Origin: Deltaproteobacteria bacterium | GTDB taxonomy: Bacteria > Desulfobacterota > Binatia > UBA9968 | NCBI GenBank assembly: GCA_016193465.1 | Contig: JACPSE010000006.1 | Span: forward strand, 13,684 to 77,683 | DNA: 64,000 bases | Direction of reading: 5' to 3' | In this document: positions 27,750 to 43,800 of the stretch, piece after piece | Position numbering within the stretch: position 1 is the stretch's first letter | Layout: every line of letters begins with the position of its first letter | Translations under genes and position numbers: made by a program | The notes under the pieces: model-generated | Seen by the model: only the letters and a program-made list of their open reading frames with translations | Databases searched by the model: none | Told to the model about the DNA's origin: nothing

Positions 27750-28892
27750 TCAATGCGTAAGGATCTGAATCACGCAGGCATTAGTTTGGATATCAAAGAC
27801 CCCACCGCCAGAGTTGTGCTGCAGCGCAACCTTACACTGGTCGACCTGACGGCCTGCCGCCTCACCGCGCAACTGCCAGACAAGCTCAGCGAGCTGAGCG
27901 ATGCCTGTAGCTCCCAGCGGATGTCCCCGCGACAGCAATCCTCCACTGGTATTCACCGCTACCTTTTCTCCATTGATATCGAAATGGCCGGCCTGGGTAT
28001 ATCGACCCCCCTCCCCCTTCGGGCAAAGGCCCAAGCTCTCGCAGTAGAGCACCTGAGCCACACTAAAAGCGTCATGAAGCTCGCACACGTCGATATCTTC
28101 AGGCCCGATCCCGGCGGCTTCATAGGCCTCGTGCGCGATTCGCGCTGCGGTATCCTCCAAAGCGCAGATCCTGTCCCGCAGCTTGCCCGATCCCATGGCC
28201 GAGGCAACGATGCTTACCGGACGAGCCGTATACTGACGAGCCGCTTTCTCGCTGCCCAGGATAGCAGCCGCCGCGCCGTCTGCGTTAACCGTGCATTGGT
28301 ATTTGGTGATAGGGTCAGCGATCATGCGCGAAGCCAGCACTTCATTCAAGCTTAATTCCTGATGAAAATAGGCATAAGGATTGTGACAAGCATTAGACCT
28401 GCTCTTAACCGTCACCAGGGCGAACTGCTCCGGCGTAGTTCCGTACTCTTCCATGTGCCGACGCGCGGCAAGCGCATAAGCCGCCGGCATGACCAAGCCC
28501 ATAGCGGCAGCGAGGTCGTCAAGATCAAGAGGGATCATTCCACTGGAAAGCGAGCGGCTCAGGCTTTCAACCCCCAACGCCAGCGCTACGTCACACAGCT
28601 CCGCCTTGATCCAAGCATAAGCCTCGCGCATTGCGGTTCCCCCGCTGGCGCAGGAATTCTCAACATTAATGACAGGGATGCCTGTAAGTCCCAGATCCTT
28701 CAGAATCCTCTGCCCTATACCAAAAGGAAGGTAAACCGACCCGACAAACGCCGCCTGAATTTTTCGCCGATCGATCCCGGCATCCCGAATTGCGGCCCGT
28801 ATCGCTTCGTGGCCGAGATCCTCGGGTGTTCGCTCCGGCATCTTGCCGAAGCGCGTCATGCCTACGCCTAAGACAGCAACACCGTGACTCAT
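27750..28892 (-). CDS. Thiolase family protein (SCP-x type)
   Basis: VGMTRFGK, NVENSCASG, ELHDAF and GHPLGATG motifs; lacks the C-terminal CxG. Confidence 0.93.
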   Translation of the reverse strand: MSHGVAVLGVGMTRFGKMPERTPEDLGHEAIRAAIRDAGIDRRKIQAAFVGSVYLPFGIGQRILKDLGLTGIPVINVENSCASGGTAMREAYAWIKAELCDVALALGVESLSRSLSSGMIPLDLDDLAAAMGLVMPAAYALAARRHMEEYGTTPEQFALVTVKSRSNACHNPYAYFHQELSLNEVLASRMIADPITKYQCTVNADGAAAAILGSEKAARQYTARPVSIVASAMGSGKLRDRICALEDTAARIAHEAYEAAGIGPEDIDVCELHDAFSVAQVLYCESLGLCPKGEGGRYTQAGHFDINGEKVAVNTSGGLLSRGHPLGATGIAQLAELVWQLRGEAAGRQVDQCKVALQHNSGGGVFDIQTNACVIQILTH

Positions 28893-28905
28893 CGCCTTTC
28901 TCCCA

Positions 28906-29313
28906 TTATAAAGGGCGGAATTTAAAGCCAATAATCTCGGTATCATCACCATCATGGCGCACAGGCTCCAGGACGAGTTCCACGTCCATGCCGATGCTCA
29001 GCTTGTTTTCGCTCACACCGGTTAACTGAGTGAGCAGCCGAATCCCCTCAGGAAGATCCACATAAGCCAGAATATAAGGGGCTTGAAAGCCCGGCTGTGT
29101 CTGACGAACAATAGCATAAGAGTAAACGGTTCCGCGCCGCGACAAAGCGACGCGCTCGGTCTCCATAGCAAAGCAACTAGGGCATGAGTTCTTAGGAGGG
29201 AAATGCACGCTCTTGCAGGCTTGGCAACTACTTCCCAGAAGATATGGGGAATCAGCGGACTCCGGGAAAAAGAAGATGTCCGGGCGCACCAACTGCCTTT
29301 TCTTCACTTCCAT
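28906..29313 (-). CDS. DUF35-type Zn-ribbon/OB-fold protein (thiolase partner)
   Basis: CQAC...FPP...CPSC, GTVYSY and PY..AYVDL.EG motifs. Confidence 0.92.
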   Translation of the reverse strand: MEVKKRQLVRPDIFFFPESADSPYLLGSSCQACKSVHFPPKNSCPSCFAMETERVALSRRGTVYSYAIVRQTQPGFQAPYILAYVDLPEGIRLLTQLTGVSENKLSIGMDVELVLEPVRHDGDDTEIIGFKFRPL

Positions 29314-29732
29314 AGCAGAACCACCACCCTTCCAGCAGCTACAAGCTGGTCCCGCTGGTTTTCCACGGTCAATTCGCACTCGGCCAAGCCCTGTCCCTCC
29401 TCTTCCCACTTCTTTACCACCCTTCCCTTACAGGCGAGCGTGTCACCGGGAAAAATGATCGCCGTGAGCCTCGCTGAAAACTTCTTAATGTTTTCGATAC
29501 CCGCCCAGTTAGTGAACATCGCAGCTAACAGCCCGACGGGAAAAGCCCCCGACAGTGCTACCGTTGGAAATCCCACAGAGCGGGCAAATTCCTCATCCAC
29601 GTGTAGGGGGTGAGGATCTTTGAGAGCGACCGACATCCAAGCCTGCTGCATACGCTTAAGGGGTCCTCGAGTCAAAGAAGGAATCTCGTCCCCTATATTT
29701 ACATCGTGAAAAGAAACCTTGCGGCTTGACAT
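29304..29732 (-). CDS. MaoC family dehydratase/hydratase
   Basis: DPHPLHVDEEFARSVG and FPGDTL hot-dog motifs. Confidence 0.9.
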   Translation of the reverse strand: MSSRKVSFHDVNIGDEIPSLTRGPLKRMQQAWMSVALKDPHPLHVDEEFARSVGFPTVALSGAFPVGLLAAMFTNWAGIENIKKFSARLTAIIFPGDTLACKGRVVKKWEEEGQGLAECELTVENQRDQLVAAGRVVVLLWK

Positions 29733-29763
29733 GGTGTGCTCGAAACTCTCTTGTGCCTACGAG

Positions 29764-29798
29764 GGGGACAGTCCCTTTTCTTCAGGGGGACTGTCCCC
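29764..29798. repeat. REP-like palindrome GGGGACAGTCCC-N11-GGGACTGTCCCC
   Basis: Perfect 12-bp inverted repeat between the two MaoC genes. Confidence 0.75.
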
Positions 29799-29804
29799 TT
29801 CCTC

Positions 29805-30275
29805 CTAGGTTGAGGCCGGCTTTTCTCCTCCAACAACGTCATCACGCCTGATTAAGGTCACCTTGTCTCTCATGACCTTCTCACCCCTCTGGTTGGTATA
29901 AACCGTCTCCATGATAAAGAACGTCATCTTGCCTTGTCTTCCCTGCTTCTCGTAAACATCGACAACACGAGTCTGCCCAGTGATCGGCTCCCCAGCTTGG
30001 ATGAGGCGATAGAACTCCCATTCGAGGTCGCCCGCCAGAACTTGCTCGAAGGCGATATTGAGCTTCGAGAGCAAACCGGCTGTATCATAGGCGGTAATAG
30101 TCTGAATAAGGCCTAGCGGGACCAATGTCCCCTCATACCCTTCAGCTTTGGCTGCCTGCTCATCTCGGAAAACAGGATTATCATCTTGTAAGGCATGGAC
30201 GTATTCCTGTACCTTTACCTTATCGATAGTTATAGTGAATGGCGGGCGCTCCCACCCAATCAACTCTTTGCTCAT
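29805..30275 (-). CDS. MaoC-like dehydratase, N-terminal type (FAS1/HadA-like)
   Basis: IG......IDK.KV.EY..AL.DDNPVF.D...A...GY pattern, plus a GE.ITG...VVDVYEK motif. Confidence 0.88.
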   Translation of the reverse strand: MSKELIGWERPPFTITIDKVKVQEYVHALQDDNPVFRDEQAAKAEGYEGTLVPLGLIQTITAYDTAGLLSKLNIAFEQVLAGDLEWEFYRLIQAGEPITGQTRVVDVYEKQGRQGKMTFFIMETVYTNQRGEKVMRDKVTLIRRDDVVGGEKPAST

Positions 30276-30286
30276 GGGGTCTTTCC

Positions 30287-31033
30287 CTACAACACCTTTC
30301 GGTTCTTAAGGGGATCAGGTACCCTTAGACCTATCGACTCGATGATAGGACTGACTTCCTGAATATAAGCCTGGCGCCTCTCCTCGTTAGTCCTTTTTTT
30401 CAGTCGCCACTCGATGAACTTCCGACTCCTATCCGAATTGGAGTAACCGAGAGTGTCTAAGGCCCTTGGATACCAGCGATCAACGGCCTCCTGAGCCTCC
30501 TGTCTGCCTTTAGGGTCGCTGGATATCCGCTTTAGCCATTCATATCCGCGGCTCGTATGAGCTGTCTCCTCAGGGAGAATAGTATGCTTGATGAGGCGCG
30601 CAAACGGGGCAAAGCTACAATCGATCTGCTCCCGCTGTTGATGCATGCCGCAACGATCCAGCAGGAATGTAAACGCGGCAAAGTCGCTCCAGGTAGCACA
30701 GGGGTGGCGAAAGGAGTCGAATCCCCGTTTCGTTTTGCTATAAGGCGTAATCTGAGTTATATCGACGTAATTTCTGATCTGATTGAGCAGCTCATAGACT
30801 TTCAGCCCATGACCGATCTCTTCGTGGATCGTCAGCGCCACCCTAAAGCGATCGTCCACGGTGGGGGCGTGCTCGACCCACCGCCCATAAATCTCCTCAT
30901 CCAGGACGACCATCTCATTGGTGGCATGATTAAATACCATCTTAACGACCAGATCCTGATACTCTTGCGGGGTGTTAGGGAAATCCCCGGCTTCTATATC
31001 TCTTCCCGCTTGTATCTCCTGCTTTGTTATCAT
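30287..31033 (-). CDS. PaaA/BoxB-like ferritin-fold di-iron protein (ring-epoxidase-like)
   Basis: NE...EEIGH...LLD...EETAH ligand pattern and a DRWYPRALDTLG...S...EW.LK.RTNEERRQ tail typical of PaaA. Confidence 0.85.
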   Translation of the reverse strand: MITKQEIQAGRDIEAGDFPNTPQEYQDLVVKMVFNHATNEMVVLDEEIYGRWVEHAPTVDDRFRVALTIHEEIGHGLKVYELLNQIRNYVDITQITPYSKTKRGFDSFRHPCATWSDFAAFTFLLDRCGMHQQREQIDCSFAPFARLIKHTILPEETAHTSRGYEWLKRISSDPKGRQEAQEAVDRWYPRALDTLGYSNSDRSRKFIEWRLKKRTNEERRQAYIQEVSPIIESIGLRVPDPLKNRKVL

Positions 31034-31078
31034 GCTGGCACGCCTCCTTAGCGTGTAGGGGCGCAGCGCGCTGCGCCC

Positions 31079-32545
31079 TTACTCCCCCAAATTAACCCAG
31101 ACGCTCTTAACCTGTGTGTAATGCTCCAGCGCATGCATTCCCAGCTCTCTGCCGAATCCACTCATCTTGTAGCCGCCAAAGGGAGAAGAAACATCCAAAG
31201 CGTTATAGGTATTGATCCATACCGTTCCTGCTTTAAGCATCTTCGCCGCCAGATGAGCCTTTTTGATGTCATGGGTCCAGACAGCCGCAGCTAAACCATA
31301 AGGGGTATCGTTACTCTTGCCGATGACTTCGTTTAAATCCTTAAAGCGAATGGTTGCCAGCACAGGTCCGAATATCTCTTCCTGAGCGATCTTCATGCGG
31401 TTGTCGACTTCATCAAAGATAGTGGGATGGAAGAAATATCCTTTCCCATTGCCTGTGCGGTATCGCTGGCCTCCCGCTACCAGCTTTCCGCCCTCAGCTA
31501 TGCCCAACTCTACATAGCGAGATACTTTTTTCAACTGTGATTCAGAAGACAAAGGTCCCAGGCGAGTTTTAGGATCGAGCGGATCCCCCGGCACCAGCCG
31601 CTTTGTTCGCTCGACAAGCTTATCCATCAAACGATCATGAACGGAATCCTCTACGAACAACCTTGATCCTGCACAACAGACCTCGCCTTTGCTATAAAAG
31701 ATTGCCCAGAACGCATGCCTAGCCGCAGCCTCGAGGTCAGCGTCAGCAAAAACAATATTCGGCGACTTGCCGCCGAGCTCCAGGGTGACCGGCTTGAGTG
31801 TAGCGGCGGCATCGCGCATGATCTGCTGGCCGGTTTTGGTCCCGCCTGTGAAAGAGATCTTGTCGACGCCGGGATGCAACACCAGGGCACGCCCGGTCGT
31901 GCTCCCTGGTCCAGTAACAACATTAAACACGCCATCCGGGAGTCCTACCTCTTGGGCAATCTCCGCTATCCGAAGAGCAGTCAGCGGAGTCTGCTCAGAT
32001 GGCTTCAGCACTACGGTATTTCCTGCGGCAAGAGCCGGAGCCACCTTCCCCGCGGCCAGGGATAGAGGGAAATTCCAGGGGCTGATGGCCCCAACCACTC
32101 CTAAAGGCTCACGCAGAGTGTAGTTAAGAAAGTTTCCCCGAACCGGAATCGTTTCTCCCTGAATCTTATCGCACCAGCCGGCGTAGTATTCGAACAGATC
32201 GGCGACGCGAGAAGCATCATGATGGCGAGTCTCCGAGATCGGCTTGCCCGTATCTATGGTTTCCAAGTAGGCTATCTCGTCGCCATATTTGACAACCGCA
32301 TCGGCAATCTTTCGAAGCAGCTTACCGCGATCAGCGCCGCTCATCGCGCTCCACGGCCCCTCCTCAAAAGCCTTTCGCGCCGCGCGCACGGCCAGATCCA
32401 CATCCCTCTCGTCGGCCTCAGCCACTTCGGTGATGACCTCCTCAGTGGCAGGATTGATCGTTGGAAAGACCTTCCCGGAAGCTGCATCCTGCCACTTGCC
32501 TCCAATAAAAAGCTTTTTAGGTCCTATCTTTGTTTCCGCAACCAT
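31079..32545 (-). CDS. Aldehyde dehydrogenase family protein
   Basis: PWNFP, KPSE, FTG, LELGGKSP, GEVC, EEIFGP and PFGGYK motifs. Confidence 0.97.
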   Translation of the reverse strand: MVAETKIGPKKLFIGGKWQDAASGKVFPTINPATEEVITEVAEADERDVDLAVRAARKAFEEGPWSAMSGADRGKLLRKIADAVVKYGDEIAYLETIDTGKPISETRHHDASRVADLFEYYAGWCDKIQGETIPVRGNFLNYTLREPLGVVGAISPWNFPLSLAAGKVAPALAAGNTVVLKPSEQTPLTALRIAEIAQEVGLPDGVFNVVTGPGSTTGRALVLHPGVDKISFTGGTKTGQQIMRDAAATLKPVTLELGGKSPNIVFADADLEAAARHAFWAIFYSKGEVCCAGSRLFVEDSVHDRLMDKLVERTKRLVPGDPLDPKTRLGPLSSESQLKKVSRYVELGIAEGGKLVAGGQRYRTGNGKGYFFHPTIFDEVDNRMKIAQEEIFGPVLATIRFKDLNEVIGKSNDTPYGLAAAVWTHDIKKAHLAAKMLKAGTVWINTYNALDVSSPFGGYKMSGFGRELGMHALEHYTQVKSVWVNLGE

Positions 32546-32611: not shown

Positions 32612-33535
32612 CTAAGGGCTAGAACCAGCATCTGCCTCGGTAAACCTCGAAAAGGCGGGCATGAAATCAAAGGGCAGCTTTCTTCTCTCGCCTCCCCTGT
32701 TTTTTACCACGTGAAGATCGACGGCCCGGTTGGGCTCGGTCAACTTTTTTGTCCGCTCTGGATTCTCCTCCATCACCAAGATGACGTCCGCGCCGGCGAC
32801 TCTTTCGGCCCACGCTTGAGGCACCGCGCCAGGAAAAGTCCCTTCCTTCCTTAAATCCGGCCAGGTAGCAACAATCGGTACCTTAAGATTGCCGGCCATG
32901 CCGTGCAGCTTTTCTGCAACCAGAGGAAGCCGGGAATCAATAGCAAGCTCTCTCGGCCCCAGACGCTGGCTGTCATCAATGACCGCCATGATCCGCGCAG
33001 ACTTTCCGGCCCCTTGAACACTACGGATCTGTCTCTCGATCTCGCCGAAATCCGTTTTTTCATTGCCCTCGCAAAGATAAACAAGGCCGAGCCAGCTTTT
33101 TGCCTCTTCTGCCGCGCTTTTTACCCTCTCCCAACTGGGAGAGCTGGGGTTGCGCTTTCTCGGGACGCCGTACCAGTGGAGCAGGAAGCCGCTGCCTCTC
33201 AGGATCTCCCCGGCCTCGACACCGCTCAGGCGCGCCAGGGTTCTAACCCTCAGATCCTTTTTGCTTTCGGCAAAGCTAAAGAAGATCGCCGGGACTGAAT
33301 TGTGCGCTGCGATCTGATCGCAAAGCTGTCTGGCGAAGGCGGTCTTACCACAAGACGGCTGGCCGATCAGCAAATAGAGGCCGGGAAGGATGCCGTTCAG
33401 GGCGCGGCTCAAGCTCGAAAAACCGGACTCCAAGCCGGCAATCTCTCTCGCCTCGCCTTCGCTTTCGAGCTCCGCAAGGAAAGATTCTGACTCCTCTCCT
33501 TCGGACAAGAGGGGTGGTTTTTCTGTCATAAGCAC
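32612..33535 (-). CDS. DnaB-like helicase C-terminal (RecA-fold) domain protein
   Basis: SGFSSLSRALNG, Walker A GQPSCGKT, Walker B-like AVIDDSQ, ADVIL and VVKNRGG motifs; no DnaB N-terminal domain. Confidence 0.8.
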   Translation of the reverse strand: MLMTEKPPLLSEGEESESFLAELESEGEAREIAGLESGFSSLSRALNGILPGLYLLIGQPSCGKTAFARQLCDQIAAHNSVPAIFFSFAESKKDLRVRTLARLSGVEAGEILRGSGFLLHWYGVPRKRNPSSPSWERVKSAAEEAKSWLGLVYLCEGNEKTDFGEIERQIRSVQGAGKSARIMAVIDDSQRLGPRELAIDSRLPLVAEKLHGMAGNLKVPIVATWPDLRKEGTFPGAVPQAWAERVAGADVILVMEENPERTKKLTEPNRAVDLHVVKNRGGERRKLPFDFMPAFSRFTEADAGSSP

Positions 33536-33650: not shown

Positions 33651-34271
33651 ATGGACAACGAAGTAAAAGGAAAAGGCGTTTCCCGACGCGACTTTTTAAA
33701 GGGGCTCGGAGGCGGCGCTATCGGCAGCGCAGTCATCTCTACCGGGCTCCTGGACCCGAACAAGGCGGAAGCCTACCCCACGGAATCTACAGGAACTAGC
33801 CGCGGCAAATCAACCATCAATCTCAAGGTCAACGGCAAGAGCTACCGCCTGGAGGTGGAACACCGCGACACCCTTGCCGAGGTGCTGCGCGATCAACTCG
33901 GCTTTACGGGCACGAAGGTCGGTTGCAACCGGGGCGAGTGCGGCGCCTGCACGGTGATCATCAACGGCCGCAGCTTCTACTCCTGCAGCCAGCTTGCCGT
34001 CTGGATGGAGGGAAAAGAGATCTTGACGATTGAGGGTCTGGAAAAAGGGGACAAACTCGATCCTATTCAAGAGGCCTTTATCGAAAACGACGGCCCGCAA
34101 TGCGGCTTTTGCACCTCCGGGCAGATCATGTCGGCAAAGGCCTTGCTGCTGCGGAACCCTGGACCTAACGAGGCTGAGGTCAGAAACGCGCTTTCAGGCA
34201 ACCTCTGCCGCTGCGGCAATTACAACCGCGAGGTAGCCGCGGTACTAGCGGTCGCCGGAAAAGGCCGGTAA
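33651..34271 (+). CDS. Tat-exported 2x[2Fe-2S] subunit of a xanthine dehydrogenase-family oxidoreductase (PaoA-like)
   Basis: SRRDFLK Tat motif; GCNRGECGAC, QCGFC and NLCRC motifs. Confidence 0.94.
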   Translation: MDNEVKGKGVSRRDFLKGLGGGAIGSAVISTGLLDPNKAEAYPTESTGTSRGKSTINLKVNGKSYRLEVEHRDTLAEVLRDQLGFTGTKVGCNRGECGACTVIINGRSFYSCSQLAVWMEGKEILTIEGLEKGDKLDPIQEAFIENDGPQCGFCTSGQIMSAKALLLRNPGPNEAEVRNALSGNLCRCGNYNREVAAVLAVAGKGR

Positions 34272-34281
34272 GGAGGTCTCC

Positions 34282-36489
34282 ATGGCACAGCAACAATTTT
34301 CCACTGTTGGAAAGAAAATCCCTCGGATCGACGCTTACGAACGGGTCACAGGACAGGCGCAATACGCCGGCGATGTCCAGCATCCCGGCATGCTCTACGC
34401 CTGTGTGCTAAGAAGCCCGCATCCGCACGCGCGGATCGCAAGCATCGATACCTCGAAGGCTGAAAAGGTCCCGGGCGTAAAGGCGATTATCCACCATAGG
34501 AATGCCGAGGTGCGCTGGTCGAGCGGCGGAGCGACCGCGCCGCGCTATATCTTCAATAACCCCGTTCGCTATGTGGGCGATTCCGTAGCGGCGGTCGCCG
34601 CTACGGACCGCCATATCGCCGAGGACGCACTCGGGCTCATCGAGGTGAAGTACGAAAATCTCCCCTATGTGCTGGATGCCAAAGAGGCGCTCAAACCCGA
34701 CGCTCCCAAGATCTATCCCAAAGGAAACCTCTCAGTCGGGGACGGCAGCACTAGCGCCCCCATTACAGAGCAGTGGGGCGACCTGGAGAAAGGGTTCAAA
34801 GAGGCCGACAGGATCTTCGAAGACACCTACATCACCAAGCACGTCAACAACGCGCAGCTCGAGCGCAGGGCAAGCGTGGCCAAGTGGGAGGGAGGCAAGC
34901 TCACGGTCTGGGCTTCCACTCAAGGCGCTTCCAACGCTCGTAGGGATATTGCCAAGGACTTGGGCCTGCCCCTCAGCAAAGTGCGGGTGATCTGCAAATA
35001 TATGGGCGGGGGCTTCGGCAACAAGAATCAGGCCCAGGACTACGATCTCATGGCTGCGGTTTTAGCCAAAGCTACCGGCCAGCCGGTGAAGCTCGAATTC
35101 ACCCGTGAAGACGATTTTATCGGCATGCATGGCCGCTGGGCGTCGGAGCAACACTACAAGGCTGGAGTCAAGAAAGACGGCACGATCACTGCAGTCGAGC
35201 TAAATGCCGTCACCAACGTGGGCGCCTACCGAAAATCAAGCGGAAACTTAAGCGGCACCGACTTCTACCAGATACCTAACTTCAAAAAGGTGGTAAACCC
35301 GGTCCATACCAATACCGTGGTTGCCGCCAACTACCGCGCGCCGGCATATCCGCAGTCGGTCTTCGGCTTTGCCTCTTTTCTCGATCAGATTGCCCACGAT
35401 ATGGGGATCAACCCGCTGGAGATGTTCCTGAAGAACCGGATTCGCATGTATAAGAGCAAGAGCCCTTTTACGTCGAACGCCTTGGAGGAGTGCATCGTCG
35501 AGGGGGCGAAGAGGATCGGCTGGAATGAAAAATGGCACAAGCCCGGGGCCTCTTCCGGAGCCAAAAAGCACGGCATAGGAATGGCCCTGGGCGGCTATCC
35601 TTTCCGGCCTGGTCTTGGCGCAGCTACCATCAGGGTTAATGCGGACGGGACCGCCCATCTGCTTGTCGGCGTCGTCGACATCGGCACCGGGGCTAAGAGC
35701 ACTATGGCGATCATCGCCTCGGAAGCCCTGGGGATCCCCCTGAATCAGATCCAGGTCACCAACGGCGACACGGATGTCACGCCGTATTGTGTAGGCGAGT
35801 CTGGAAGCCGCTGCACCTCCTTCACCGGACCGGCTGTGATCGCCGCAGCAGAGGATGTTAGGAGGCTGATCTTTAACGCCGCCGCGCCGCAGCTAAAAGC
35901 CAAACCGGAAGATTTGGATTTGAAGGATGGCAAGGTCTTCATAAAAGCCAATCCCTCCCAAAGCCTCCCTTTGAGCCGGGCTGTTGCAAGATCCGGCGAG
36001 CTTATTGGCCGCGCGACAACCAATCCTGCTTTTAAGGGCGTCCAGGGGAAGAGCTTTGCCGCCCACTTCGCTGAAGTAGAAGTGGACACCTGGACCGGCC
36101 ACGTCAAGGTTACGAGATACGTCGCCGCCCACGACAGTGGGACGATTCTCAATCGGCTCCCCGCTGAAAGCCAGATCAAGGGTGGCGTGGTGCAGGGGAT
36201 CGGCATGGCCCTGACCGAGGAACTCCTCATCGACAGGCCAACTGCGATACCGCTGAATCCGAGTTACCGTGATGCCAAGGTCCCCACTCACCTAGAGGCG
36301 CCGGAGGTTGAGGTGATCTTCATCGAGCCTTATGATCCCTACGGTCCTTTCGGGGGCAAGTCACTCGGAGAACCTCCGATCACGGCAGCCGTGGCCACAG
36401 TTGGCAATGCCATCTTTAACGCGACGGGCAAGAGATTCAAGGAGCTACCCATTACGCCGGACAAGATCCTGCATGCGGTCCAAGTCTGA
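34282..36489 (+). CDS. Xanthine dehydrogenase-family molybdopterin-binding subunit
   Basis: RSPHPHARI, MGGGFG, YRAP, DIGTG and GGKSLGE motifs. Confidence 0.95.
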   Translation: MAQQQFSTVGKKIPRIDAYERVTGQAQYAGDVQHPGMLYACVLRSPHPHARIASIDTSKAEKVPGVKAIIHHRNAEVRWSSGGATAPRYIFNNPVRYVGDSVAAVAATDRHIAEDALGLIEVKYENLPYVLDAKEALKPDAPKIYPKGNLSVGDGSTSAPITEQWGDLEKGFKEADRIFEDTYITKHVNNAQLERRASVAKWEGGKLTVWASTQGASNARRDIAKDLGLPLSKVRVICKYMGGGFGNKNQAQDYDLMAAVLAKATGQPVKLEFTREDDFIGMHGRWASEQHYKAGVKKDGTITAVELNAVTNVGAYRKSSGNLSGTDFYQIPNFKKVVNPVHTNTVVAANYRAPAYPQSVFGFASFLDQIAHDMGINPLEMFLKNRIRMYKSKSPFTSNALEECIVEGAKRIGWNEKWHKPGASSGAKKHGIGMALGGYPFRPGLGAATIRVNADGTAHLLVGVVDIGTGAKSTMAIIASEALGIPLNQIQVTNGDTDVTPYCVGESGSRCTSFTGPAVIAAAEDVRRLIFNAAAPQLKAKPEDLDLKDGKVFIKANPSQSLPLSRAVARSGELIGRATTNPAFKGVQGKSFAAHFAEVEVDTWTGHVKVTRYVAAHDSGTILNRLPAESQIKGGVVQGIGMALTEELLIDRPTAIPLNPSYRDAKVPTHLEAPEVEVIFIEPYDPYGPFGGKSLGEPPITAAVATVGNAIFNATGKRFKELPITPDKILHAVQV

Positions 36490-36506
36490 TCTAGGAGGGA
36501 GAGGCC

Positions 36507-37490
36507 ATGAAAAGCTTCGCAAATATCGATGTTAAGAGCGTGAGGGAGGCGGTCACCCTTTTGCAAAAGTTACATCAGGAGAAAAAGAGCGCCGAGATCG
36601 TCTCTGGCGGGACCGAGCTCTTGCAGCTCATGAAGGATCGCGTTGCCACGCCTCAATACCTGATCAACCTAAAGACCATTCCCGGTCTCAACTACATCAA
36701 AGAAGAGAGAAGCGGCTTTCGCATCGGCGCTCTGACAACCTTGACGGAGATCGAAGAGCACAAAGGCGTTCGAGAAAAACTCCTCTTTCTCTCCCAGGCC
36801 GCCGGCGAGGCCGCCTCCCCTCAGCTACGGAACGCCGGCACCATCGGGGGAAATATCTGCCAGCGACCTTTCTGCTGGTATTTCCGCTCCGCTAATTTTC
36901 CCTGCCTGCGCAAAGGCGGCGGGATCTGTTACGCTGTTGCCGGAGATAACCGCTACCATGCCATTTTAGGGGGCGGGCCGAGCTATATCGTTCACCCCTC
37001 TGATACCGCTCCAGCCCTCATCGCCCTGGGGGCAAGAATAAAGATCACCGGACCGGCGGGAGAAAAGACGATCCCATTAGAAAAGTTCTTCGTCCTCCCG
37101 CAGGTGGATTACAAACGAGAAAACATCCTCCAGCCGGGGGAGATTCTAACTGAGGTTCAGATTCCCCATCCCAAGCCCGGGAGCAAGGGCTTCTACCACA
37201 AAGTGCGCGAGCGGCAGGCTTGGGACCACGCCATCGTGAGCGTGTCGACCGTGGTTCAGAGCAAAGGCGGGATTTGTCAGGATGCCCATGTAGTCTTAGG
37301 TGGCGTGGCGCCGATTCCCTGGCGCGCTGCCAAGGCGGAAGCATTCCTGCGCGGGAAAAAGGTTGACGAGGGCACAGCCCGGCAGGTGGGTGAAATCGCC
37401 TTGGACGGCGCAAGACCCATGAAAGACAACGTCTACAAAATAGGCATGGCAAAGTCCTTGATCCAAAGGGCGCTGCTGGCGTCTGTGTAG
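36507..37490 (+). CDS. Xanthine dehydrogenase-family FAD-binding subunit
   Basis: SGGTEL, RNAGTIGGN, CWYFR, HPSD and GGVAPIPWR motifs. Confidence 0.95.
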   Translation: MKSFANIDVKSVREAVTLLQKLHQEKKSAEIVSGGTELLQLMKDRVATPQYLINLKTIPGLNYIKEERSGFRIGALTTLTEIEEHKGVREKLLFLSQAAGEAASPQLRNAGTIGGNICQRPFCWYFRSANFPCLRKGGGICYAVAGDNRYHAILGGGPSYIVHPSDTAPALIALGARIKITGPAGEKTIPLEKFFVLPQVDYKRENILQPGEILTEVQIPHPKPGSKGFYHKVRERQAWDHAIVSVSTVVQSKGGICQDAHVVLGGVAPIPWRAAKAEAFLRGKKVDEGTARQVGEIALDGARPMKDNVYKIGMAKSLIQRALLASV

Positions 37491-37538: not shown

Positions 37539-38708
37539 ATGAGCAAGCCGTCCCACGATCCCGATGCATTTGCCGAACTGCGCGACGCGGTGGCCGCGCT
37601 CTGCAGCCGGTTTACCGGCGAATACTGGCGCAAGATTGACGAGGAGCGCAGCTATCCGGAACTATTCGTCAAGGCACTGACCGATGCAGGCTACCTCGCC
37701 GCGTTGATTCCGGAGGAATACGGCGGCTCCGGGCTCGGGGTAACTGAGGCCTCGATTATCCTCGAAGCGATCAATCGGTCGGGCGGTAATTCCGCCGTGT
37801 GCCACGGCCAGATGTACACCATGGGCACGATCCTGCGCCACGGCTCGAAGGAACAGAAGGCGAAATACCTGCCTAAAGTGGCCAGCGGGGAGCTCAGACT
37901 GCAGGCCTTTGCCGTGACCGAGCCTACTACCGGCACCGATACCACCCGGCTCAAGACCGCGGCGGTGCGCAAAGGCGACCATTATGTGGTCAATGGGCAG
38001 AAGGTGTGGATCTCACGCGTGCTGTATTCCGATATGATGCTGCTGCTCGCGCGCACCACGCCCTTCGACCAGGTGAAGAAGAAATCCGACGGTCTGTCGG
38101 TGTTTCTGGTCGACCTGCGCGAGGCGGTCGGCAAGGGCCTTACCGTAAAGCCGATCCGCAACATGATGAACGCGCAGACCAACGAGCTGTTTTTCGACGA
38201 TCTCAAGGTGCCGGCAGAAAACCTGATCGGCGAGGAGGGCAAGGGCTTCAAGTGCATCCTCGACGGCATGAACGCCGAGCGCGTCCTGATCGCCGCCGAG
38301 TGCATCGGCGACGGCTACTGGTTCGTCGAAAAGGCGACCAACTACGCCAAGCAGCGCGTGGTGTTCGGCCGGCCGATCGGCCAGAACCAGGGCATCCAGT
38401 TCCCGATCGCGCGCGCCTACGTCAACGTGCAGGCGGCGGATCTGATGCGTTACAAGGCGGCGCGGCTGTTCGACGAGGGCAAGCCGTGCGGCGCGGAGGC
38501 GAATATGGCGAAATTGCTCGCGGCCGATGCTTCGTGGGAAGCAGCCGACGTCGCCATGCAGACGCACGGTGGTTTTGGCTTTGCCGCCGAATACGACATC
38601 GAGCGCAAGTTCCGCGAAACCAAGCTGTTCCAGATCGCGCCGATCTCAACCAACTTGATTCTGTCCTACATCGGCGAGCACGTGCTTGGCCTTCCGCGGT
38701 CATTCTAA
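37539..38708 (+). CDS. Acyl-CoA dehydrogenase (methylsuccinyl-CoA dehydrogenase-like by context)
   Basis: FAVTEPTTGTDT, NGQKVWIS, VFGRPIGQNQGIQF and HGGFG motifs. Confidence 0.93.
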   Translation: MSKPSHDPDAFAELRDAVAALCSRFTGEYWRKIDEERSYPELFVKALTDAGYLAALIPEEYGGSGLGVTEASIILEAINRSGGNSAVCHGQMYTMGTILRHGSKEQKAKYLPKVASGELRLQAFAVTEPTTGTDTTRLKTAAVRKGDHYVVNGQKVWISRVLYSDMMLLLARTTPFDQVKKKSDGLSVFLVDLREAVGKGLTVKPIRNMMNAQTNELFFDDLKVPAENLIGEEGKGFKCILDGMNAERVLIAAECIGDGYWFVEKATNYAKQRVVFGRPIGQNQGIQFPIARAYVNVQAADLMRYKAARLFDEGKPCGAEANMAKLLAADASWEAADVAMQTHGGFGFAAEYDIERKFRETKLFQIAPISTNLILSYIGEHVLGLPRSF

Positions 38709-38712
38709 AGCG

Positions 38713-38815
38713 TTCACCGCAGAGAACCTGGAGGACGCAGAGTCTATGAATCATTCTGAAAAAGTCTTGGCGTCCCTGGCGGCTCGCCGTTTGCCGTTTA
38801 CCGTTCACAGTAGCT
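38713..38815. repeat. Intergenic short-period repeat element (9-bp CGCAGAG-type and 7-bp CCGTT-type units)
   Basis: TTCACCGCAGAGAACCTGGAGGACGCAGAG...GGCGTCCCTGGCGG...CGCCGTTTGCCGTTTACCGTTCAC. Confidence 0.6.
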
Positions 38816-38818
38816 GAC

Positions 38819-39997
38819 ATGCGCCCCCTAGACGGCATCAGGGTAATTGCCTTCGAGCATGCGGTGGCGGCGCCGTTCGCCACGCGCCAGCTTGCGGACC
38901 TGGGCGCGCGCGTCATCAAGATCGAGCGCCCCAAAGTCGGCGATTTCGCGCGCGACTACGACAACACCGTTAAGGGCATGTCCTCGCATTTCGTGTGGCT
39001 TAACCGCTCCAAGGAAAGCCTTACGCTCGATCTCAAGCACCCGCGTGCCACGCAAATCCTCGAACGGCTGCTTGAGCGTGCGGACGTGGTGATCCAGAAC
39101 CTCGCGCCCGGGGCGGCGCGACGGCTCGGGCTCAGCGCCGAATCGCTGCTGCCGAAGTATCCCCGGCTCATCGTGTGCGACCTGTCGGGCTACGGGGATG
39201 CCGGGCCGTACGCGACAAAAAAGGCATACGATCTGCTGGTGCAAAGCGAAAGTGGCGCGCTGTCGGTAACCGGCACCGCCGACACCCCGAGCAAAGTCGG
39301 CATTTCCATCGCCGACATCGCGACCGGCATGTACGCCTATTGCGGCATTCTCACGGCGCTGTACCAGCGCGAGAAATCTGGCAAAGGCATACGCATCGAG
39401 GTCACCATGTTCGAGGCGCTGACCGAGTGGATGGGTTACCCGCTTTATTACACGCATTTCGGCGGCAAGGCACCGGCCCGCACTGGTCCCGACCACGCGA
39501 CGATCGTGCCGTATGGCCGTTATCAAACTGGCGACGGCAAGAGCGTGATGCTCGGGTTGCAGAACGAGCGCGAGTGGGCGGTGTTCTGCGAGCAAGTGCT
39601 GCTGCAGCCCGAAGTCGCGCAAGACCCGCGCTACGACTCTAACTCGAAGCGCGCTGCCAGGCGGGCCGAGATTAACGCGCTGATCGGCAAGGTCTTCGCG
39701 ATGCTTACTGCCGAACAGTTGAGCGAGCGTCTTGATGCGTCAGGTATCGCCAATGCGCGCATGAACACGCCGGACGAAGTGTGGGAGCATCCGCAATTAA
39801 AAGCCCGCAATCGCTGGCGCGAGATGGACTCGCCGGCCGGGCCGTTGGCGACGCTGCTGCCGCCGGTGACGATGCCGGATTTCGAGGCGCGCATGGATGC
39901 GGTGCCCGCGCTGGGCGAACACACCGAGCGCATCCTGGACGAGTTGGGTTACAGTAGCGGGGATATCGCCGCGCTGCGGGAAGCAGGCGCGGTGTAG
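38819..39997 (+). CDS. Class III CoA-transferase (CaiB/BaiF family)
   Basis: PLDGIRVI, LADLGARVIKIE, NRSKESL, IADIATG and PALGEHT motifs. Confidence 0.95.
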   Translation: MRPLDGIRVIAFEHAVAAPFATRQLADLGARVIKIERPKVGDFARDYDNTVKGMSSHFVWLNRSKESLTLDLKHPRATQILERLLERADVVIQNLAPGAARRLGLSAESLLPKYPRLIVCDLSGYGDAGPYATKKAYDLLVQSESGALSVTGTADTPSKVGISIADIATGMYAYCGILTALYQREKSGKGIRIEVTMFEALTEWMGYPLYYTHFGGKAPARTGPDHATIVPYGRYQTGDGKSVMLGLQNEREWAVFCEQVLLQPEVAQDPRYDSNSKRAARRAEINALIGKVFAMLTAEQLSERLDASGIANARMNTPDEVWEHPQLKARNRWREMDSPAGPLATLLPPVTMPDFEARMDAVPALGEHTERILDELGYSSGDIAALREAGAV

Positions 39998-40032
39998 GTT
40001 GCATCAGCGCCAGGACAGTCTGGAGGATCAAC

Positions 40033-41436: not shown

Positions 41437-41498
41437 CCTTGTTGACGGCTGTCAGTGACCTATGTTAGGCAGGATTTCACTCATGAGAGGAGAAACTA

Positions 41499-42647
41499 AT
41501 GTTAGTGTTAACGAATGAGGACGTCGAGCAAGTCCTTACCATGGACGTTTGCCTGCAGGCGGTAGAGGATTGTACGCGCGAGATAGCCCTCGGCAACGTC
41601 ATTCCATGTCTTAGCCGCACGGTGAATCAACCGCTCCCAGGCGCATCTCCAGGTCCAACCGGCCCGGAAAGTACCTCTGCATCCTACATGTTACGCCTGA
41701 TGCCGGTGATTGACCTCCCGGACAATGCTGTGGTCCTCCGTGTGAACTCTACCACGATGCACGTGGTCGAGATGTATGGCGCCAAGCGGCATGTTATTGG
41801 CCGGCCTGGCTCTAAGATGGCAGGTCACCATCGCAGCGAGAAACCTGGCTGGTTATTGCTATTTGATCTTTCTACTGGCTACCTCTTAGCTATGGTGCAG
41901 GACCGTCACGTCCAGACCATGCGCGTCGGCGCTGTGGGAGGTCTAGGTGCCAAGTACATGGCGCGCTCAGACGCCCACACCATTGGGCTTTTAGGCGTCG
42001 GTTGGATGGCAGGGCCACAGCTGCTGGCACACTGTGCTGTACGGAGAATCTCTTCAGTGAGAGTGTTTAGTCCTAATCCCCAGCATCGGCAGATTTTTTC
42101 TAAGCAGATGAGCGAACGGCTTGGAATCGAGGTTCGCCCGGCTCCATCGGCTGAAGAGGCGGTTCGTAGGGCAGACATCGTTATTTCAGCGACAAATAGC
42201 ATTGATCCTACCTTTGATCCTGACTGGGTGGGACCAGGCAGTCACGTCTACTGCGTCACGCCGGGAGAATATGACGAGCGGATGATCAGAAAGGCAGACG
42301 TGATTGCTTGGGCGTATCCTGGTCAGTCAGAACACTCCCATGGAGCTCCTACCAACGTGGCGGACCCGGCCAAGGTCCCCGGTGACCAACGGTACCGCAC
42401 CCACATATGGGGTTTATTGGAGAAGCATACAGGCAAACGCGTGTATTTGACAGATCTCGTGACCGGACGAGCGAAGGGGCGCACCGATGACGGCCAGATT
42501 ACTTTCAATCCCTCTCCTGCTGGAGGCACCGCCGGAATTGCCCGGTTCGCAGTCCTAGTACCGAGGCTATATGAGCTTGCAAAAACGAAGTGTGTTGGAC
42601 ATGACCTGCCGGACGATTGGTTTCGACAGGAGGCGGAACTTTATTGA
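41499..42647 (+). CDS. Ornithine cyclodeaminase/mu-crystallin family protein (copy 1)
   Basis: MLVLTNEDVEQVL, LLFDLSTG..LA...D..VQTMRVGAVGG and ADIVISAT motifs. Confidence 0.85.
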   Translation: MLVLTNEDVEQVLTMDVCLQAVEDCTREIALGNVIPCLSRTVNQPLPGASPGPTGPESTSASYMLRLMPVIDLPDNAVVLRVNSTTMHVVEMYGAKRHVIGRPGSKMAGHHRSEKPGWLLLFDLSTGYLLAMVQDRHVQTMRVGAVGGLGAKYMARSDAHTIGLLGVGWMAGPQLLAHCAVRRISSVRVFSPNPQHRQIFSKQMSERLGIEVRPAPSAEEAVRRADIVISATNSIDPTFDPDWVGPGSHVYCVTPGEYDERMIRKADVIAWAYPGQSEHSHGAPTNVADPAKVPGDQRYRTHIWGLLEKHTGKRVYLTDLVTGRAKGRTDDGQITFNPSPAGGTAGIARFAVLVPRLYELAKTKCVGHDLPDDWFRQEAELY

Positions 42648-42675
42648 ATGAGGAGAAATCGGGCTTTAACGTGGA

Positions 42676-43737: not shown

Positions 43738-43800
43738 CGCCCTTGCCCGTCAACTGTAGAGACATGGACTTCTGTCCTCTTAGGGGGGGCGAGTAGCTAT

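What the first reader, a model, noticed from the sequence alone, without database searches (positions are those of the whole stretch)
27750..32545. Minimal epoxide-type ring-cleavage operon built on a stand-alone PaaA-like di-iron protein
The operon is ALDH, PaaA-like (full E/ExxH/D/ExxH ligand set), two MaoC, DUF35 and thiolase, with no PaaB/C/E reductase and no CoA ligase. In the Paa pathway PaaZ is an ALDH-MaoC fusion and PaaJ a thiolase, so split equivalents are all present. However, the MaoC pair with DUF35/thiolase resembles steroid side-chain or Bbs-type modules. This may be an uncharacterised O2-dependent pathway for a non-phenylacetate acyl-CoA.
Basis: partly seen in the sequence, partly recalled or inferred. 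Interest (0 to 1): 0.65.

Follow-up and report, generated by a model that had tools for sequence, protein, structure and literature searches.

The report
Orphan PaaA-like oxygenase in thiolase operon
A six-gene operon in an uncultured Binatia bacterium links a short iron-dependent oxygenase, related to but distinct from the phenylacetate ring-opening enzyme PaaA, to enzymes that hydrate and cleave CoA-bound acids, which points to an undescribed oxygen-dependent breakdown route, probably for aromatic acids.

Summary
On the minus strand, 32545-27750 encodes ALDH, a 248-aa PaaA-like protein, a HadA/HadB-type hot-dog pair, a DUF35 zinc-ribbon protein and a BbsB/SCP2-type thiolase, tightly packed. 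The PaaA-like protein has a confident PaaA fold and all six di-iron ligands. It is not a PaaA: it scores 125.7 bits against the 280-bit cut-off, falls outside the canonical PaaA clade, and lacks the Lys68/Glu49 'lysine bridge' and the C-terminal ~60 residues. The protein belongs to a small clade (Binatia plus Actinomycetota MAGs). In that clade the gene sits beside thiolase and hot-dog genes in 10 of 13 loci, against 0 of 63 in sister clades. Flanking genes are aromatic-acid genes: UbiD, Amidohydro_2, PaaK-like ligases and a bicupin. Sister clades carry a candidate reductase (thioredoxin-like [2Fe-2S] ferredoxin plus NuoF-like), and this genome encodes one elsewhere. My best reading (about 0.4) is a PaaBCE-independent epoxidation and hydrolytic ring cleavage of an aryl-CoA. 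The main rival is O2-driven side-chain beta-oxidation. Substrate, reductant and chemistry are all untested. The 'split PaaZ/PaaJ' equivalence holds only at superfamily level.

The parts
31079..32545 (-). NAD(P)-dependent aldehyde dehydrogenase (488 aa), first gene of the operon
   Evidence: PF00171 630.7 bits. Best NCBIfam matches are betaine-aldehyde DH (NF009725, 597.3 vs cut-off 593), HpaE and StyD. No PaaN/PaaZ/BoxD model is among the 25 best of 44 families. The catalytic motifs ELGGKSP and EVCCAGS are visible in the sequence. 91% identical in L012.
30287..31033 (-). Short stand-alone PaaA-like ferritin-fold di-iron protein (248 aa), the proposed O2-activating acyl-CoA oxygenase
   Evidence: PF05138 101.7 bits. 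TIGR02156 (PaaA) 125.7 vs cut-off 280; BoxB 17.8 vs 499. AF2 pLDDT 91.3. Foldseek: PaaA 4iit_A TMq 0.85, SSO1313 4mud 0.80, PaaC 0.74, BoxB 0.70. Ligands E40/E72/H75/D126/E156/H159 and F108 are conserved; K68/E49 are replaced by T68/Y49; the C-terminal ~60 aa of PaaA are absent. Outside the canonical PaaA clade.
29805..30275 (-). HadA-like hot-dog subunit (156 aa), probably the non-catalytic partner of the hydratase
   Evidence: PF13452 97.6 bits; HadA NF040624 60.5 (<180). PDB best hits are HadA 7svt/4rlj, then ChsH1/ChsH2. The motif DDNPVF lacks the catalytic His. It starts 11 bp after the PaaA-like stop.
29304..29732 (-). MaoC/HadB-like hot-dog subunit (142 aa), the catalytic (R)-hydratase-type partner
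   Evidence: PF01575 48.1 bits; HadB NF010246 36.1 (<203). PDB best hits are the 5i7n double hot-dog and HadB 4rlj_B/5zy8_B; PaaZ is not among hits at E<0.01. The hydratase-2 motif KDPHPLH keeps Asp and His.
28906..29313 (-). DUF35 protein (135 aa): rubredoxin-like Zn ribbon plus OB fold, BbsA-like thiolase partner
   Evidence: PF12172 37.2 and PF01796 67.7 bits; BbsA NF053627 114.5 (<250). CxxC...CxxC (CQAC...CPSC) is in the sequence. The 135-aa gene call comes from the metagenome copy L005. It overlaps the MaoC stop by 10 bp.
27750..28892 (-). SCP2/BbsB-type thiolase (380 aa), last gene of the operon
   Evidence: PF22691 138 bits, PF00108 66 bits; BbsB NF053628 294 (<750). PDB: SCP2-thiolase 6hsj 2.4e-79, BbsB 7pxp_C 1.2e-76, Ltp2 aldolase 6ok1 only 1e-30. 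The nucleophile Cys (NSCASG), HDAF and GHP motifs are present and align with BbsB.
32612..33535 (-). DnaB C-terminal-domain-like P-loop protein (307 aa), co-oriented 66 bp upstream; membership of the unit is doubtful
   Evidence: PF03796 65.8 bits. Present upstream in same-species metagenome contigs L005/L006. In the other Binatia species L012, the gene upstream of the ALDH is a UbiD-family gene instead.

Best explanation
The operon encodes a PaaBCE-independent, O2-dependent catabolic module for a CoA-activated acid, most likely an aryl-acetyl- or aroyl-type thioester. The 248-aa PaaA-like protein is the catalytic di-iron oxygenase. By analogy with PaaA and BoxB, the only characterised relatives, it delivers an oxygen atom to the beta/gamma position relative to the thioester carbonyl, that is, it epoxidises the ring. 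The gene that follows immediately, together with its partner, forms a HadAB-type heterodimeric hot-dog enzyme that hydrates or hydrolyses the oxygenated thioester and opens the ring. The ALDH oxidises the resulting semialdehyde. The BbsAB-type thiolase/DUF35 pair cleaves the resulting 3-oxoacyl-CoA. This logic needs neither an acyl-CoA dehydrogenase nor a hydroxyacyl-CoA dehydrogenase, and the operon has neither. Electrons are supplied in trans. The best candidate is the thioredoxin-like [2Fe-2S] ferredoxin plus NuoF-like flavoprotein on another contig (C149). Shown: gene content, fold, ligand conservation, non-membership in PaaA, absence of PaaBCE, and the conserved gene linkage. Inferred: CoA-ester substrate, aromatic substrate class, epoxidation chemistry, order of steps and electron donor.
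For: The fold and metal site are those of PaaA. Phe108, which orients the phenylacetyl group in PaaA (PMC4498308), is invariant in the clade. The C-terminal motif RLKKRTNEERRQ is shared with PaaA WKIKRFTNDELRQ. Every conserved context of the family is CoA-thioester metabolism. In clade I that means thiolase/DUF35 plus hot-dog genes in 10 of 13 loci, and PaaK-like ligases in 7 of 11 Actinomycetota/Alphaproteobacteria loci; in Chloroflexota it means AMP-dependent ligases. A hot-dog gene always follows the oxygenase directly: HadA-like in the window, and a double hot-dog protein in Actinomycetota (AF2 pLDDT 82.9, Foldseek hydratase-2 1s9c E 1.5e-10). This mirrors the PaaA to PaaZ-MaoC relationship. 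The context is aromatic: UbiD x2 and Amidohydro_2 flank the orthologous operon in L012; Rieske dioxygenase, bicupin, FAA hydrolase, RPE65-ECH and Amidohydro_2 occur in Actinomycetota loci. The window contig gave no tblastn hit to E. coli PaaH (HADH) or PaaF/G (crotonase). Candidate reductase: ferredoxin plus NuoF-like genes lie directly upstream of the short PaaA-like gene in L029, L031, L060 and L080, and a 55-57% identical pair is on own-genome C149.
Against: No biochemical data exist for any member of the short PaaA-like radiation; only the structural-genomics entry 4MUD exists. No reductase is encoded in cis in any clade-I locus. There is no PaaG/BoxC-like crotonase isomerase in the operon. 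The ALDH is a generic type, not a CoA-semialdehyde type, and it accompanies the oxygenase in only about 4 of 14 clade-I loci (window, L012, L013, L101), whereas hydrolytic ring cleavage should always need one. The hot-dog pair and thiolase are of the types used for bulky side-chain beta-oxidation (HadAB/ChsH, BbsAB) rather than PaaZ/PaaJ types. The substrate cannot be named.
Confidence: 0.4

Rival explanations
1. This is side-chain beta-oxidation of a bulky aryl-alkanoyl- or branched acyl-CoA. The PaaA-like di-iron enzyme performs the oxidative step(s), either beta-hydroxylation or desaturation at C-beta, that acyl-CoA dehydrogenase and hydroxyacyl-CoA dehydrogenase normally perform. The HadAB-type hydratase and BbsAB-type thiolase then do their usual jobs and release acetyl-CoA plus an aroyl-CoA. 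The ALDH only feeds an aldehyde precursor into the pathway.
For: The hot-dog pair is HadAB/ChsH-like and the thiolase BbsB/SCP2-like with DUF35; both types are typical of bulky side-chain beta-oxidation. The conserved core of clade I is oxygenase + hot-dogs + thiolase/DUF35 (+ SCP2, ligase) without ALDH, ACAD, HADH or reductase. UbiD and CouO-like Amidohydro_2 neighbours in L012 fit phenylpropanoid catabolism. PaaA and BoxB both place oxygen at the beta/gamma carbons, so beta-hydroxylation is geometrically plausible (an inference from the known substrates).
Against: The only characterised relatives are ring epoxidases. PaaK-like ligases, which typically act on aryl-acetates that cannot be beta-oxidised, accompany most Actinomycetota members. 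An ACAD and a CoA-transferase exist in the divergent operon of the window, and ACADs and SDRs occur near L100, so a replacement is not obviously needed. Stepwise hydroxylation would need even more external reductant.
Confidence: 0.22
2. The short PaaA-like protein is one subunit of a hetero-oligomeric oxygenase. Its partner would be one of the genome's two BoxB-like 366/373-aa di-iron proteins (contigs C149, C39), with the C149 ferredoxin/NuoF-like pair as reductase. It would then be 'stand-alone' only in gene order. Whatever the chemistry, the active enzyme would be a BoxB-like/PaaA-like complex, as PaaA needs PaaC.
For: L060 and L080 encode BoxB-like (365 aa), ferredoxin, NuoF-like and short PaaA-like proteins in one co-directional cassette. 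At least 14 Chloroflexota loci have a BoxB-like gene within about 7 kb of the short PaaA-like gene, and in several it is the next gene upstream. L101 has two PaaA-like genes in one cluster. Canonical PaaA is inactive without PaaC and PaaB (PMC4498308, PMC9493321).
Against: No clade-I locus, including the window and L012, has a BoxB-like gene nearby. Both protein types keep full ligand sets, so they may equally be two separate oxygenases that share a reductase. SSO1313 crystallised on its own (4MUD).
Confidence: 0.15
3. It is a bona fide PaaA acting on phenylacetyl-CoA, and its PaaB/C/E partners are encoded elsewhere.
For: PaaA is the best-scoring named family and the best structural match. PaaK-like, PaaF/G/H/J-like genes exist on other contigs.
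Against: The score is 125.7 vs 280 bits. The protein falls outside the SH-aLRT-100 PaaA clade. Lys68/Glu49, present in 26 of 29 canonical PaaA representatives, are absent here and in the whole short radiation. There is no PaaB by HMM and no PaaB/PaaC/PaaE by tblastn in a genome estimated 100% complete. None lies within 8 kb in about 80 related loci.
Confidence: 0.02
4. The protein is a non-catalytic ferritin-like protein: a structural, iron-storage or regulatory role, as PaaC is structural.
For: PaaC shows that members of PF05138 can be non-catalytic. No reductase is encoded in cis.
Against: All six metal ligands are invariant across phyla, whereas the family profile barely matches PaaC (E 0.05). 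There is tight operon linkage to enzymes.
Confidence: 0.04

Closest known systems
PaaABC(D)E phenylacetyl-CoA 1,2-epoxidase (E. coli, Pseudomonas; PDB 3PW1, 4IIT)
   Same: Same Pfam family (PF05138) and ferritin-like fold (TMq 0.85). The six di-iron ligand positions are identical, Phe108 is conserved, and the C-terminal basic motif is shared. Genomic association with CoA-thioester enzymes, including a hot-dog enzyme, an ALDH and a thiolase.
   Different: 26-29% identity and below the equivalog cut-off, in a separate clade. No Lys68/Glu49 lysine bridge and no C-terminal ~60 residues. No PaaB, PaaC, PaaD-in-cluster or PaaE. The downstream enzymes are HadAB-, BbsAB- and BADH-like rather than PaaZ, PaaG and PaaJ.
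BoxAB benzoyl-CoA 2,3-epoxidase with BoxC/BoxD
   Same: The same superfamily and the same overall logic: a di-iron epoxidase on a CoA ester, then hydrolytic ring opening, then an ALDH.
   Different: BoxB is 473 aa (TMq 0.70, 17.8 bits on TIGR03225). There is no BoxA and no crotonase-type BoxC. The genome instead carries two truncated BoxB-like proteins elsewhere, with a different reductase type (NuoF-like).
SSO1313 of Saccharolobus (Sulfolobus) solfataricus, PDB 4MUD (structural genomics, function unknown)
   Same: A short (235 aa) stand-alone PaaA-like protein: profile E 6.6e-29, TMt 0.88. It belongs to the same kind of short form.
   Different: 25% identity and archaeal. No function or context is described, so it offers no functional transfer.
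BbsAB benzoylsuccinyl-CoA thiolase (Geobacter metallireducens, PDB 7PXP)
   Same: The thiolase and its DUF35 Zn-ribbon/OB partner are encoded side by side. The HDAF, GHP and nucleophile-Cys motifs are shared (E 1.2e-76).
   Different: Below the BbsA/BbsB equivalog cut-offs. There are no BbsCD, BbsEF, BbsG or BbsH in the operon, and the setting is an aerobic oxygenase context rather than anaerobic toluene catabolism.
HadAB / ChsH1-ChsH2 heteromeric (R)-specific hot-dog hydratases, and Ltp2-ChsH2(DUF35) steroid side-chain aldolase
   Same: Two adjacent hot-dog genes, one catalytic and one not. There is a DUF35 partner for a thiolase-fold enzyme, and the genes lie next to an ALDH, as in the Pseudomonas Shy/Sal/Sad route.
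   Different: The thiolase here keeps the nucleophilic Cys and is far closer to BbsB/SCP2-thiolase than to Ltp2 (1e-30), so a retro-aldolase role is unlikely. The scores lie well below the HadA/HadB cut-offs.

Membership tests
PaaA, catalytic subunit of phenylacetyl-CoA 1,2-epoxidase (TIGR02156) | Score at or above the curated equivalog cut-off (280 bits) | tested here: not met
   125.7 bits
PaaA, catalytic subunit of phenylacetyl-CoA 1,2-epoxidase (TIGR02156) | Di-iron ligands Glu42, Glu72, His75, Asp126, Glu155, His158 | tested here: met
   E40, E72, H75, D126, E156 and H159 align with them and are invariant in the family (ligand list from PMC4498308)
PaaA, catalytic subunit of phenylacetyl-CoA 1,2-epoxidase (TIGR02156) | Lysine bridge Lys68 with Glu49 next to the metal site | tested here: not met
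   T68 and Y49 occupy these positions. K68/E49 are present in 26 of 29 canonical representatives with a residue there, and neither is among the commonest residues in the 98 short forms
PaaA, catalytic subunit of phenylacetyl-CoA 1,2-epoxidase (TIGR02156) | Partner subunits PaaB, PaaC and PaaE encoded in the genome | tested here: not met
   PF06243 gave no hit at E<=0.1. tblastn with E. coli PaaB, PaaC and PaaE gave no hit at E<=1e-3. None in about 80 related loci
PaaA, catalytic subunit of phenylacetyl-CoA 1,2-epoxidase (TIGR02156) | Phylogenetic placement inside the clade that holds E. coli PaaA | tested here: not met
   The canonical clade (32 representatives, SH-aLRT 100) excludes it. It lies in a 98-member radiation of 235-285-aa proteins (quick tree, SH-aLRT only)
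PaaA, catalytic subunit of phenylacetyl-CoA 1,2-epoxidase (TIGR02156) | Epoxidation of phenylacetyl-CoA | not testable with these tools
   Needs an enzyme assay
Pfam PF05138 PaaA_PaaC (ferritin-like superfamily) | Score above the gathering threshold, and the fold | tested here: met
   101.7 vs 28.5 bits. AF2 model pLDDT 91.3 matches PaaA at TMq 0.85
BoxB benzoyl-CoA 2,3-epoxidase (TIGR03225) | Equivalog score (499 bits) and ~470-aa architecture | tested here: not met
   17.8 bits over 65 residues; 248 aa
BbsAB-type thiolase (thiolase + DUF35 subunit) | Adjacent genes for an SCP2/BbsB-type thiolase and a Zn-ribbon/OB DUF35 protein; catalytic Cys, HDAF and GHP motifs | tested here: met
   CxxC...CxxC in the DUF35 protein
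BbsAB-type thiolase (thiolase + DUF35 subunit) | Equivalog scores for BbsA (250) and BbsB (750), i.e. benzoylsuccinyl-CoA specificity | tested here: not met
   114.5 and 294.2 bits
HadAB/ChsH-type heteromeric (R)-hydratase | Two single hot-dog subunits, only one with the hydratase-2 Asp/His motif | tested here: met
   MaoC has KDPHPLH; the HadA-like protein has DDNPVF. Best PDB matches are HadB and HadA. Heterodimer formation itself was not tested
PaaZ (fused ALDH-MaoC oxepin-CoA hydrolase / semialdehyde dehydrogenase) | PaaN-type ALDH domain and PaaZ-type MaoC domain | tested here: not met
   The ALDH's best models are BADH/HpaE/StyD, with no PaaN/PaaZ model in the top 25. PaaZ is absent from the MaoC PDB hits at E<0.01. 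The genes are neither fused nor adjacent

The most novel reading that the evidence does not exclude
The short PaaA-like enzyme is a reductase-independent di-iron acyl-CoA oxidase. It would take two electrons from the acyl-CoA (desaturation) and two from the 3-hydroxyacyl-CoA made by the hot-dog hydratase, and so reduce one O2 to water. Oxygenase + hydratase + thiolase would then form a self-contained, O2-driven beta-oxidation cycle that needs no acyl-CoA dehydrogenase, no hydroxyacyl-CoA dehydrogenase, no NAD and no ETF. This would explain why no clade-I locus encodes a reductase, an ACAD or an HADH in the core.
Probability: 0.07. Interest if true: 0.85.

Novelty: new variant of a known kind. 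Interest (0 to 1): 0.6.

Why it matters
Only two CoA-dependent aerobic 'epoxide' routes for aromatic rings are known, Paa and Box. Each rests on one characterised member of this di-iron family. Here the family contains a large uncharacterised radiation of short forms: 98 of 136 representatives in the tree, all from uncultured Binatia, Actinomycetota, Chloroflexota, Acidobacteriota and archaea. These forms have kept the metal site but lost every PaaA-specific accessory feature. They have acquired different partners: BbsAB-type thiolase plus hot-dog hydratases, CoA ligase plus molybdenum hydroxylase, ferredoxin/NuoF-like, or ETF. If the window's clade is a ring- or side-chain-attacking acyl-CoA oxygenase, it adds a third pathway type for aromatic and lignin-derived acids in abundant soil lineages. 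It would also give a minimal single-subunit scaffold for CoA-ester oxygenation and a new reductase class for such enzymes. Annotation pipelines currently name these proteins 'PaaA', which wrongly predicts phenylacetate catabolism in these genomes.

Tried and rejected
1. Retro-aldolase reading (Ltp2/Sal-like thiolase-fold aldolase feeding the ALDH). Rejected because the thiolase keeps the nucleophilic Cys and is far closer to BbsB/SCP2-thiolase than to Ltp2.

2. The neighbouring molybdenum hydroxylase (33651-37490) as electron donor or CoA-ester hydroxylase partner. Rejected for the window. Its FeS subunit has a Tat signal (SRRDFLK) and its FAD subunit has a 4-Cys insert, so it is PaoABC-like and periplasmic. 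It is only about 32% identical to the cytoplasmic CoxMSL-like enzymes linked to the Chloroflexota homologues.

3. The 246-260-aa protein after the oxygenase in Actinomycetota as a hidden PaaC. Rejected: there is no profile match, and the AF2 model is a double hot-dog.

4. The divergent operon (ACAD, family III CoA-transferase, MmgE/PrpD, OCD, TctCA) as part of the unit. Not supported, because it is not conserved next to the orthologous operon in L012.

5. The AMP-ligase at 18291-19868 as the missing ligase.

6. Literature searches for PaaA-like, SSO1313 or BoxB-like proteins found no functional study. The 2011 PaaAC structure paper is not held, so CoA-contact residues could not be compared.

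7. The promoter/terminator scan gave chance-level counts.

9. A search of 151 genomes of the class found only the paralogous (C2) type, at 41% identity or less.

Full report
**Observation.** The minus strand between 32545 and 27750 carries six tightly spaced ORFs.
- ALDH (488 aa, PF00171).
- A 248-aa PF05138 protein.
- A FAS1_DH_region/HadA-like hot-dog protein (156 aa).
- A MaoC hot-dog protein (142 aa).
- A DUF35 protein (135 aa, Zn ribbon plus OB fold).
- A thiolase (380 aa).

The intergenic distances are 45, 11, 72, -10 and 13 bp. The promoter/terminator scan was uninformative.

**The di-iron protein.**
- It scores 101.7 bits on PF05138. It reaches only 125.7 bits on the PaaA equivalog model (cut-off 280) and 17.8 on BoxB.
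- A profile of 16 homologues matches PaaA structures at about 1e-31, the uncharacterised Saccharolobus protein SSO1313 (4MUD, 235 aa) at 7e-29, BoxB at 5e-13 and PaaC at only 0.05.
- The AlphaFold model is confident (pLDDT 91.3). It superposes on PaaA with TMq 0.85, on 4MUD with 0.80, on PaaC with 0.74 and on BoxB with 0.70.
- All six PaaA metal ligands (listed in PMC4498308) align with E40, E72, H75, D126, E156 and H159, and these are invariant.
- Phe108, which positions the phenylacetyl group in PaaA, is also invariant.
- Lys68 and Glu49, the 'lysine bridge' proposed for electron transfer from PaaE, are replaced by Thr and Tyr. The last ~60 residues of PaaA are missing.
- Across 130 representatives, Lys68/Glu49 mark the canonical clade (26 of 29) and are essentially absent from the short forms. 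The ligands are kept in at least 94 of 98 short forms, counting Asp or Glu at position 126.

**Phylogeny and distribution.**
- An exhaustive search of 1.84 billion cluster representatives found only 583 clusters at E<1e-3 and 15 at E<1e-30.
- In a quick ML tree, the canonical PaaA clade (32 representatives, 300-380 aa, SH-aLRT 100, including E. coli PaaA) is separate from a radiation of 98 short proteins. The window protein sits in a 10-member clade (SH-aLRT 99).
- All 69 genomic relatives are from MAGs. One Binatia genome is 81% identical. Actinomycetota/Acidimicrobiia and one Alphaproteobacteria MAG are at 40-47%. Chloroflexota (Limnocylindria), Acidobacteriota and other Binatia are at 34-44%.
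- In 151 sampled genomes of the class, the best non-self hit is 41% and belongs to a paralogous type. The operon is therefore rare in Binatia, and its closest relatives lie in another phylum, which suggests lateral transfer.

**The refutation test.** The genome (4.5 Mb, 238 contigs, completeness estimate 100%) has four PF05138 genes but no PaaB by HMM. tblastn with the E. coli proteins found no PaaB, PaaC or PaaE. None of about 80 related loci has PaaB, C, D or E within 8 kb. The protein is therefore not a bona fide PaaA with distant partners.

**Context.**
- I extracted the homologue from 74 loci, built a tree and labelled each locus with its neighbours.
- Clade I comprises the window, L012 and 11 Actinomycetota/Alphaproteobacteria MAG loci. 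It has a thiolase within 5 kb in 10 of 13 loci and hot-dog genes in 10 of 13. Clade II (63 loci) has neither.
- Gene calls with Pfam confirm the Actinomycetota order. It runs PaaA-like, a 246-260-aa protein, DUF35, thiolase, HadA-like, MaoC, PaaK-like ligase, SCP2.
- The 246-260-aa protein has no Pfam match and no similarity to the PaaA-like profile. Its model (pLDDT 82.9) is a double hot-dog hydratase-2 fold. A hot-dog gene therefore directly follows the oxygenase gene throughout the clade.
- One locus has two PaaA-like genes flanking the thiolase/hot-dog genes (L101).
- The only block shared between the window and the other Binatia species is the six-gene operon, at 81-91% identity. There it is flanked by two UbiD-family decarboxylases and an Amidohydro_2 enzyme.
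- Actinomycetota loci add a Rieske dioxygenase, a bicupin, an FAA hydrolase, an RPE65-ECH fusion, Amidohydro_2 and Mce transporters. These are aromatic-acid contexts.

**The accessory enzymes.**
- The thiolase is closest to SCP2-thiolase (2e-79) and BbsB (1e-76). It shares the HDAF motif with BbsB and keeps the nucleophilic Cys. The steroid aldolase Ltp2 is distant (1e-30). It is therefore a true thiolase of the BbsAB type, not a retro-aldolase.
- The hot-dog proteins match HadA and HadB best. Only the MaoC protein keeps the catalytic Asp/His, and PaaZ is not among the matches.
- The ALDH is of the BADH/HpaE/StyD kind and just passes one betaine-aldehyde DH cut-off. No PaaN/PaaZ/BoxD model appears among its top hits.
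- PaaJ-like classical thiolases lie on other contigs.
- The 'split PaaZ plus PaaJ' idea therefore holds only at the level of superfamily and reaction logic.

**Electron supply.**
- No reductase is encoded in the operon or in any clade-I locus.
- The adjacent molybdenum hydroxylase (33651-37490) is PaoABC-like. Its FeS subunit has a Tat signal and its FAD subunit a four-Cys insert, so it is periplasmic and not a partner.
- In four clade-II loci, a thioredoxin-like [2Fe-2S] ferredoxin (107 aa) and a NuoF-like flavoprotein lie immediately upstream of the short PaaA-like gene. In L060 and L080 the cassette also contains a 365-aa BoxB-like di-iron protein and an ALDH upstream.
- The window's genome carries a 55-57% identical ferredoxin/NuoF-like pair next to a BoxB-like gene on contig C149, and a second BoxB-like gene on C39.
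- This is the best candidate reductase acting in trans. It also raises the possibility of a BoxB-like/PaaA-like hetero-complex.

**Mechanism.**
- Both characterised relatives oxygenate the beta-gamma bond relative to the thioester carbonyl: ring C1-C2 of phenylacetyl-CoA and ring C2-C3 of benzoyl-CoA.
- The reading I favour (about 0.4) runs as follows. The protein epoxidises the ring of an aryl-acetyl- or aroyl-CoA. The hot-dog enzyme hydrolyses the oxygenated ring. The ALDH oxidises the semialdehyde. The thiolase cleaves the 3-oxoacyl-CoA.
- This reading accounts for every gene, for the absence of ACAD and HADH, and for the PaaK-like ligases in relatives.
- The main rival (about 0.2) is beta-oxidative side-chain shortening with the di-iron enzyme doing the oxidation at C-beta. 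It fits the HadAB/BbsAB enzyme types and the sporadic presence of the ALDH.
- Both readings are inferences; no member of the short radiation has been assayed.

**Novelty.** The family, fold and general logic are known. The clade, its lack of all Paa accessory subunits, its signature differences and its conserved partnership with BbsAB-type thiolase and hot-dog hydratases are undescribed in the searched literature. I rate it a new variant of a known kind, with interest 0.6.

**Limits.**
- The trees are quick searches with SH-aLRT support only.
- ORF calling in high-GC loci was crude, and the neighbourhood labels rest on tblastn.
- The genome is a 238-contig MAG.

Noticed in passing
own genome contig C149:3843-6583 (minus strand); also C39:408-1529; loci L060:2317-5709 and L080:5324-8711: There is a cassette of a truncated BoxB-like di-iron protein (366 aa; TIGR03225 247 bits vs cut-off 499; full E/ExxH/D/ExxH), a thioredoxin-like [2Fe-2S] ferredoxin (107 aa) and a NuoF-like flavoprotein (420 aa). 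In two Acidobacteriota MAGs the same cassette ends with a short PaaA-like gene and has an ALDH upstream. This looks like an undescribed multicomponent acyl-CoA oxygenase with a new reductase type.
   Followed up: partly
loci L021-L059 (Chloroflexota/Limnocylindria), e.g. L021:6820-8699 and downstream: A conserved order occurs in about 30 loci: GNAT-like, BoxB-like (~340 aa), short PaaA-like, AMP-dependent CoA ligase, then the FAD, [2Fe-2S] and Mo subunits of a CoxMSL-like hydroxylase. In some loci (L081) TctABC transporters stand next to the ligase and no Mo-enzyme genes are seen. It may be a heteroaromatic or aromatic acid-CoA pathway that combines a molybdenum hydroxylase with di-iron oxygenases.
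   Followed up: partly
own genome contig C2:12481-15316; loci L093, L096-L099: A second short PaaA-like paralogue (238 aa) is followed by EtfB and EtfA. This adjacency is kept in 5 of 11 related Binatia genomes, which hints that electron-transfer flavoprotein is functionally linked to this di-iron family.
   Followed up: partly
window 33651-37490 (+): A PaoABC-like periplasmic molybdenum aldehyde oxidoreductase has the unusual gene order FeS, Mo, FAD. The FeS subunit has a Tat signal (SRRDFLK). The FAD subunit has a four-Cys insert (C118, C122, C132, C141), like the [4Fe-4S] loop of PaoB/HcrB.
   Followed up: partly
window 37539-45200 (+): Downstream of the Mo enzyme lie an acyl-CoA dehydrogenase, a family III CoA-transferase, MmgE/PrpD, an OCD/mu-crystallin enzyme, TctC and TctA. 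This looks like an uptake-and-activation operon for a di- or tricarboxylic acid. It is not conserved next to the orthologous oxygenase operon in L012.
   Followed up: no
locus L101:49-4973: An Actinomycetota metagenome contig has two 261-aa PaaA-like genes bracketing thiolase, a 439-aa protein without Pfam match, HadA-like and MaoC genes. It may be a heterodimeric version of the oxygenase.
   Followed up: no
window 32612-33535 (-): A stand-alone DnaB C-terminal-domain P-loop protein lies 66 bp upstream of the ALDH and is co-oriented with it. It is present in same-species metagenome contigs but is replaced by a UbiD gene in the sister species, so it is probably not part of the catabolic unit.
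   Followed up: partly
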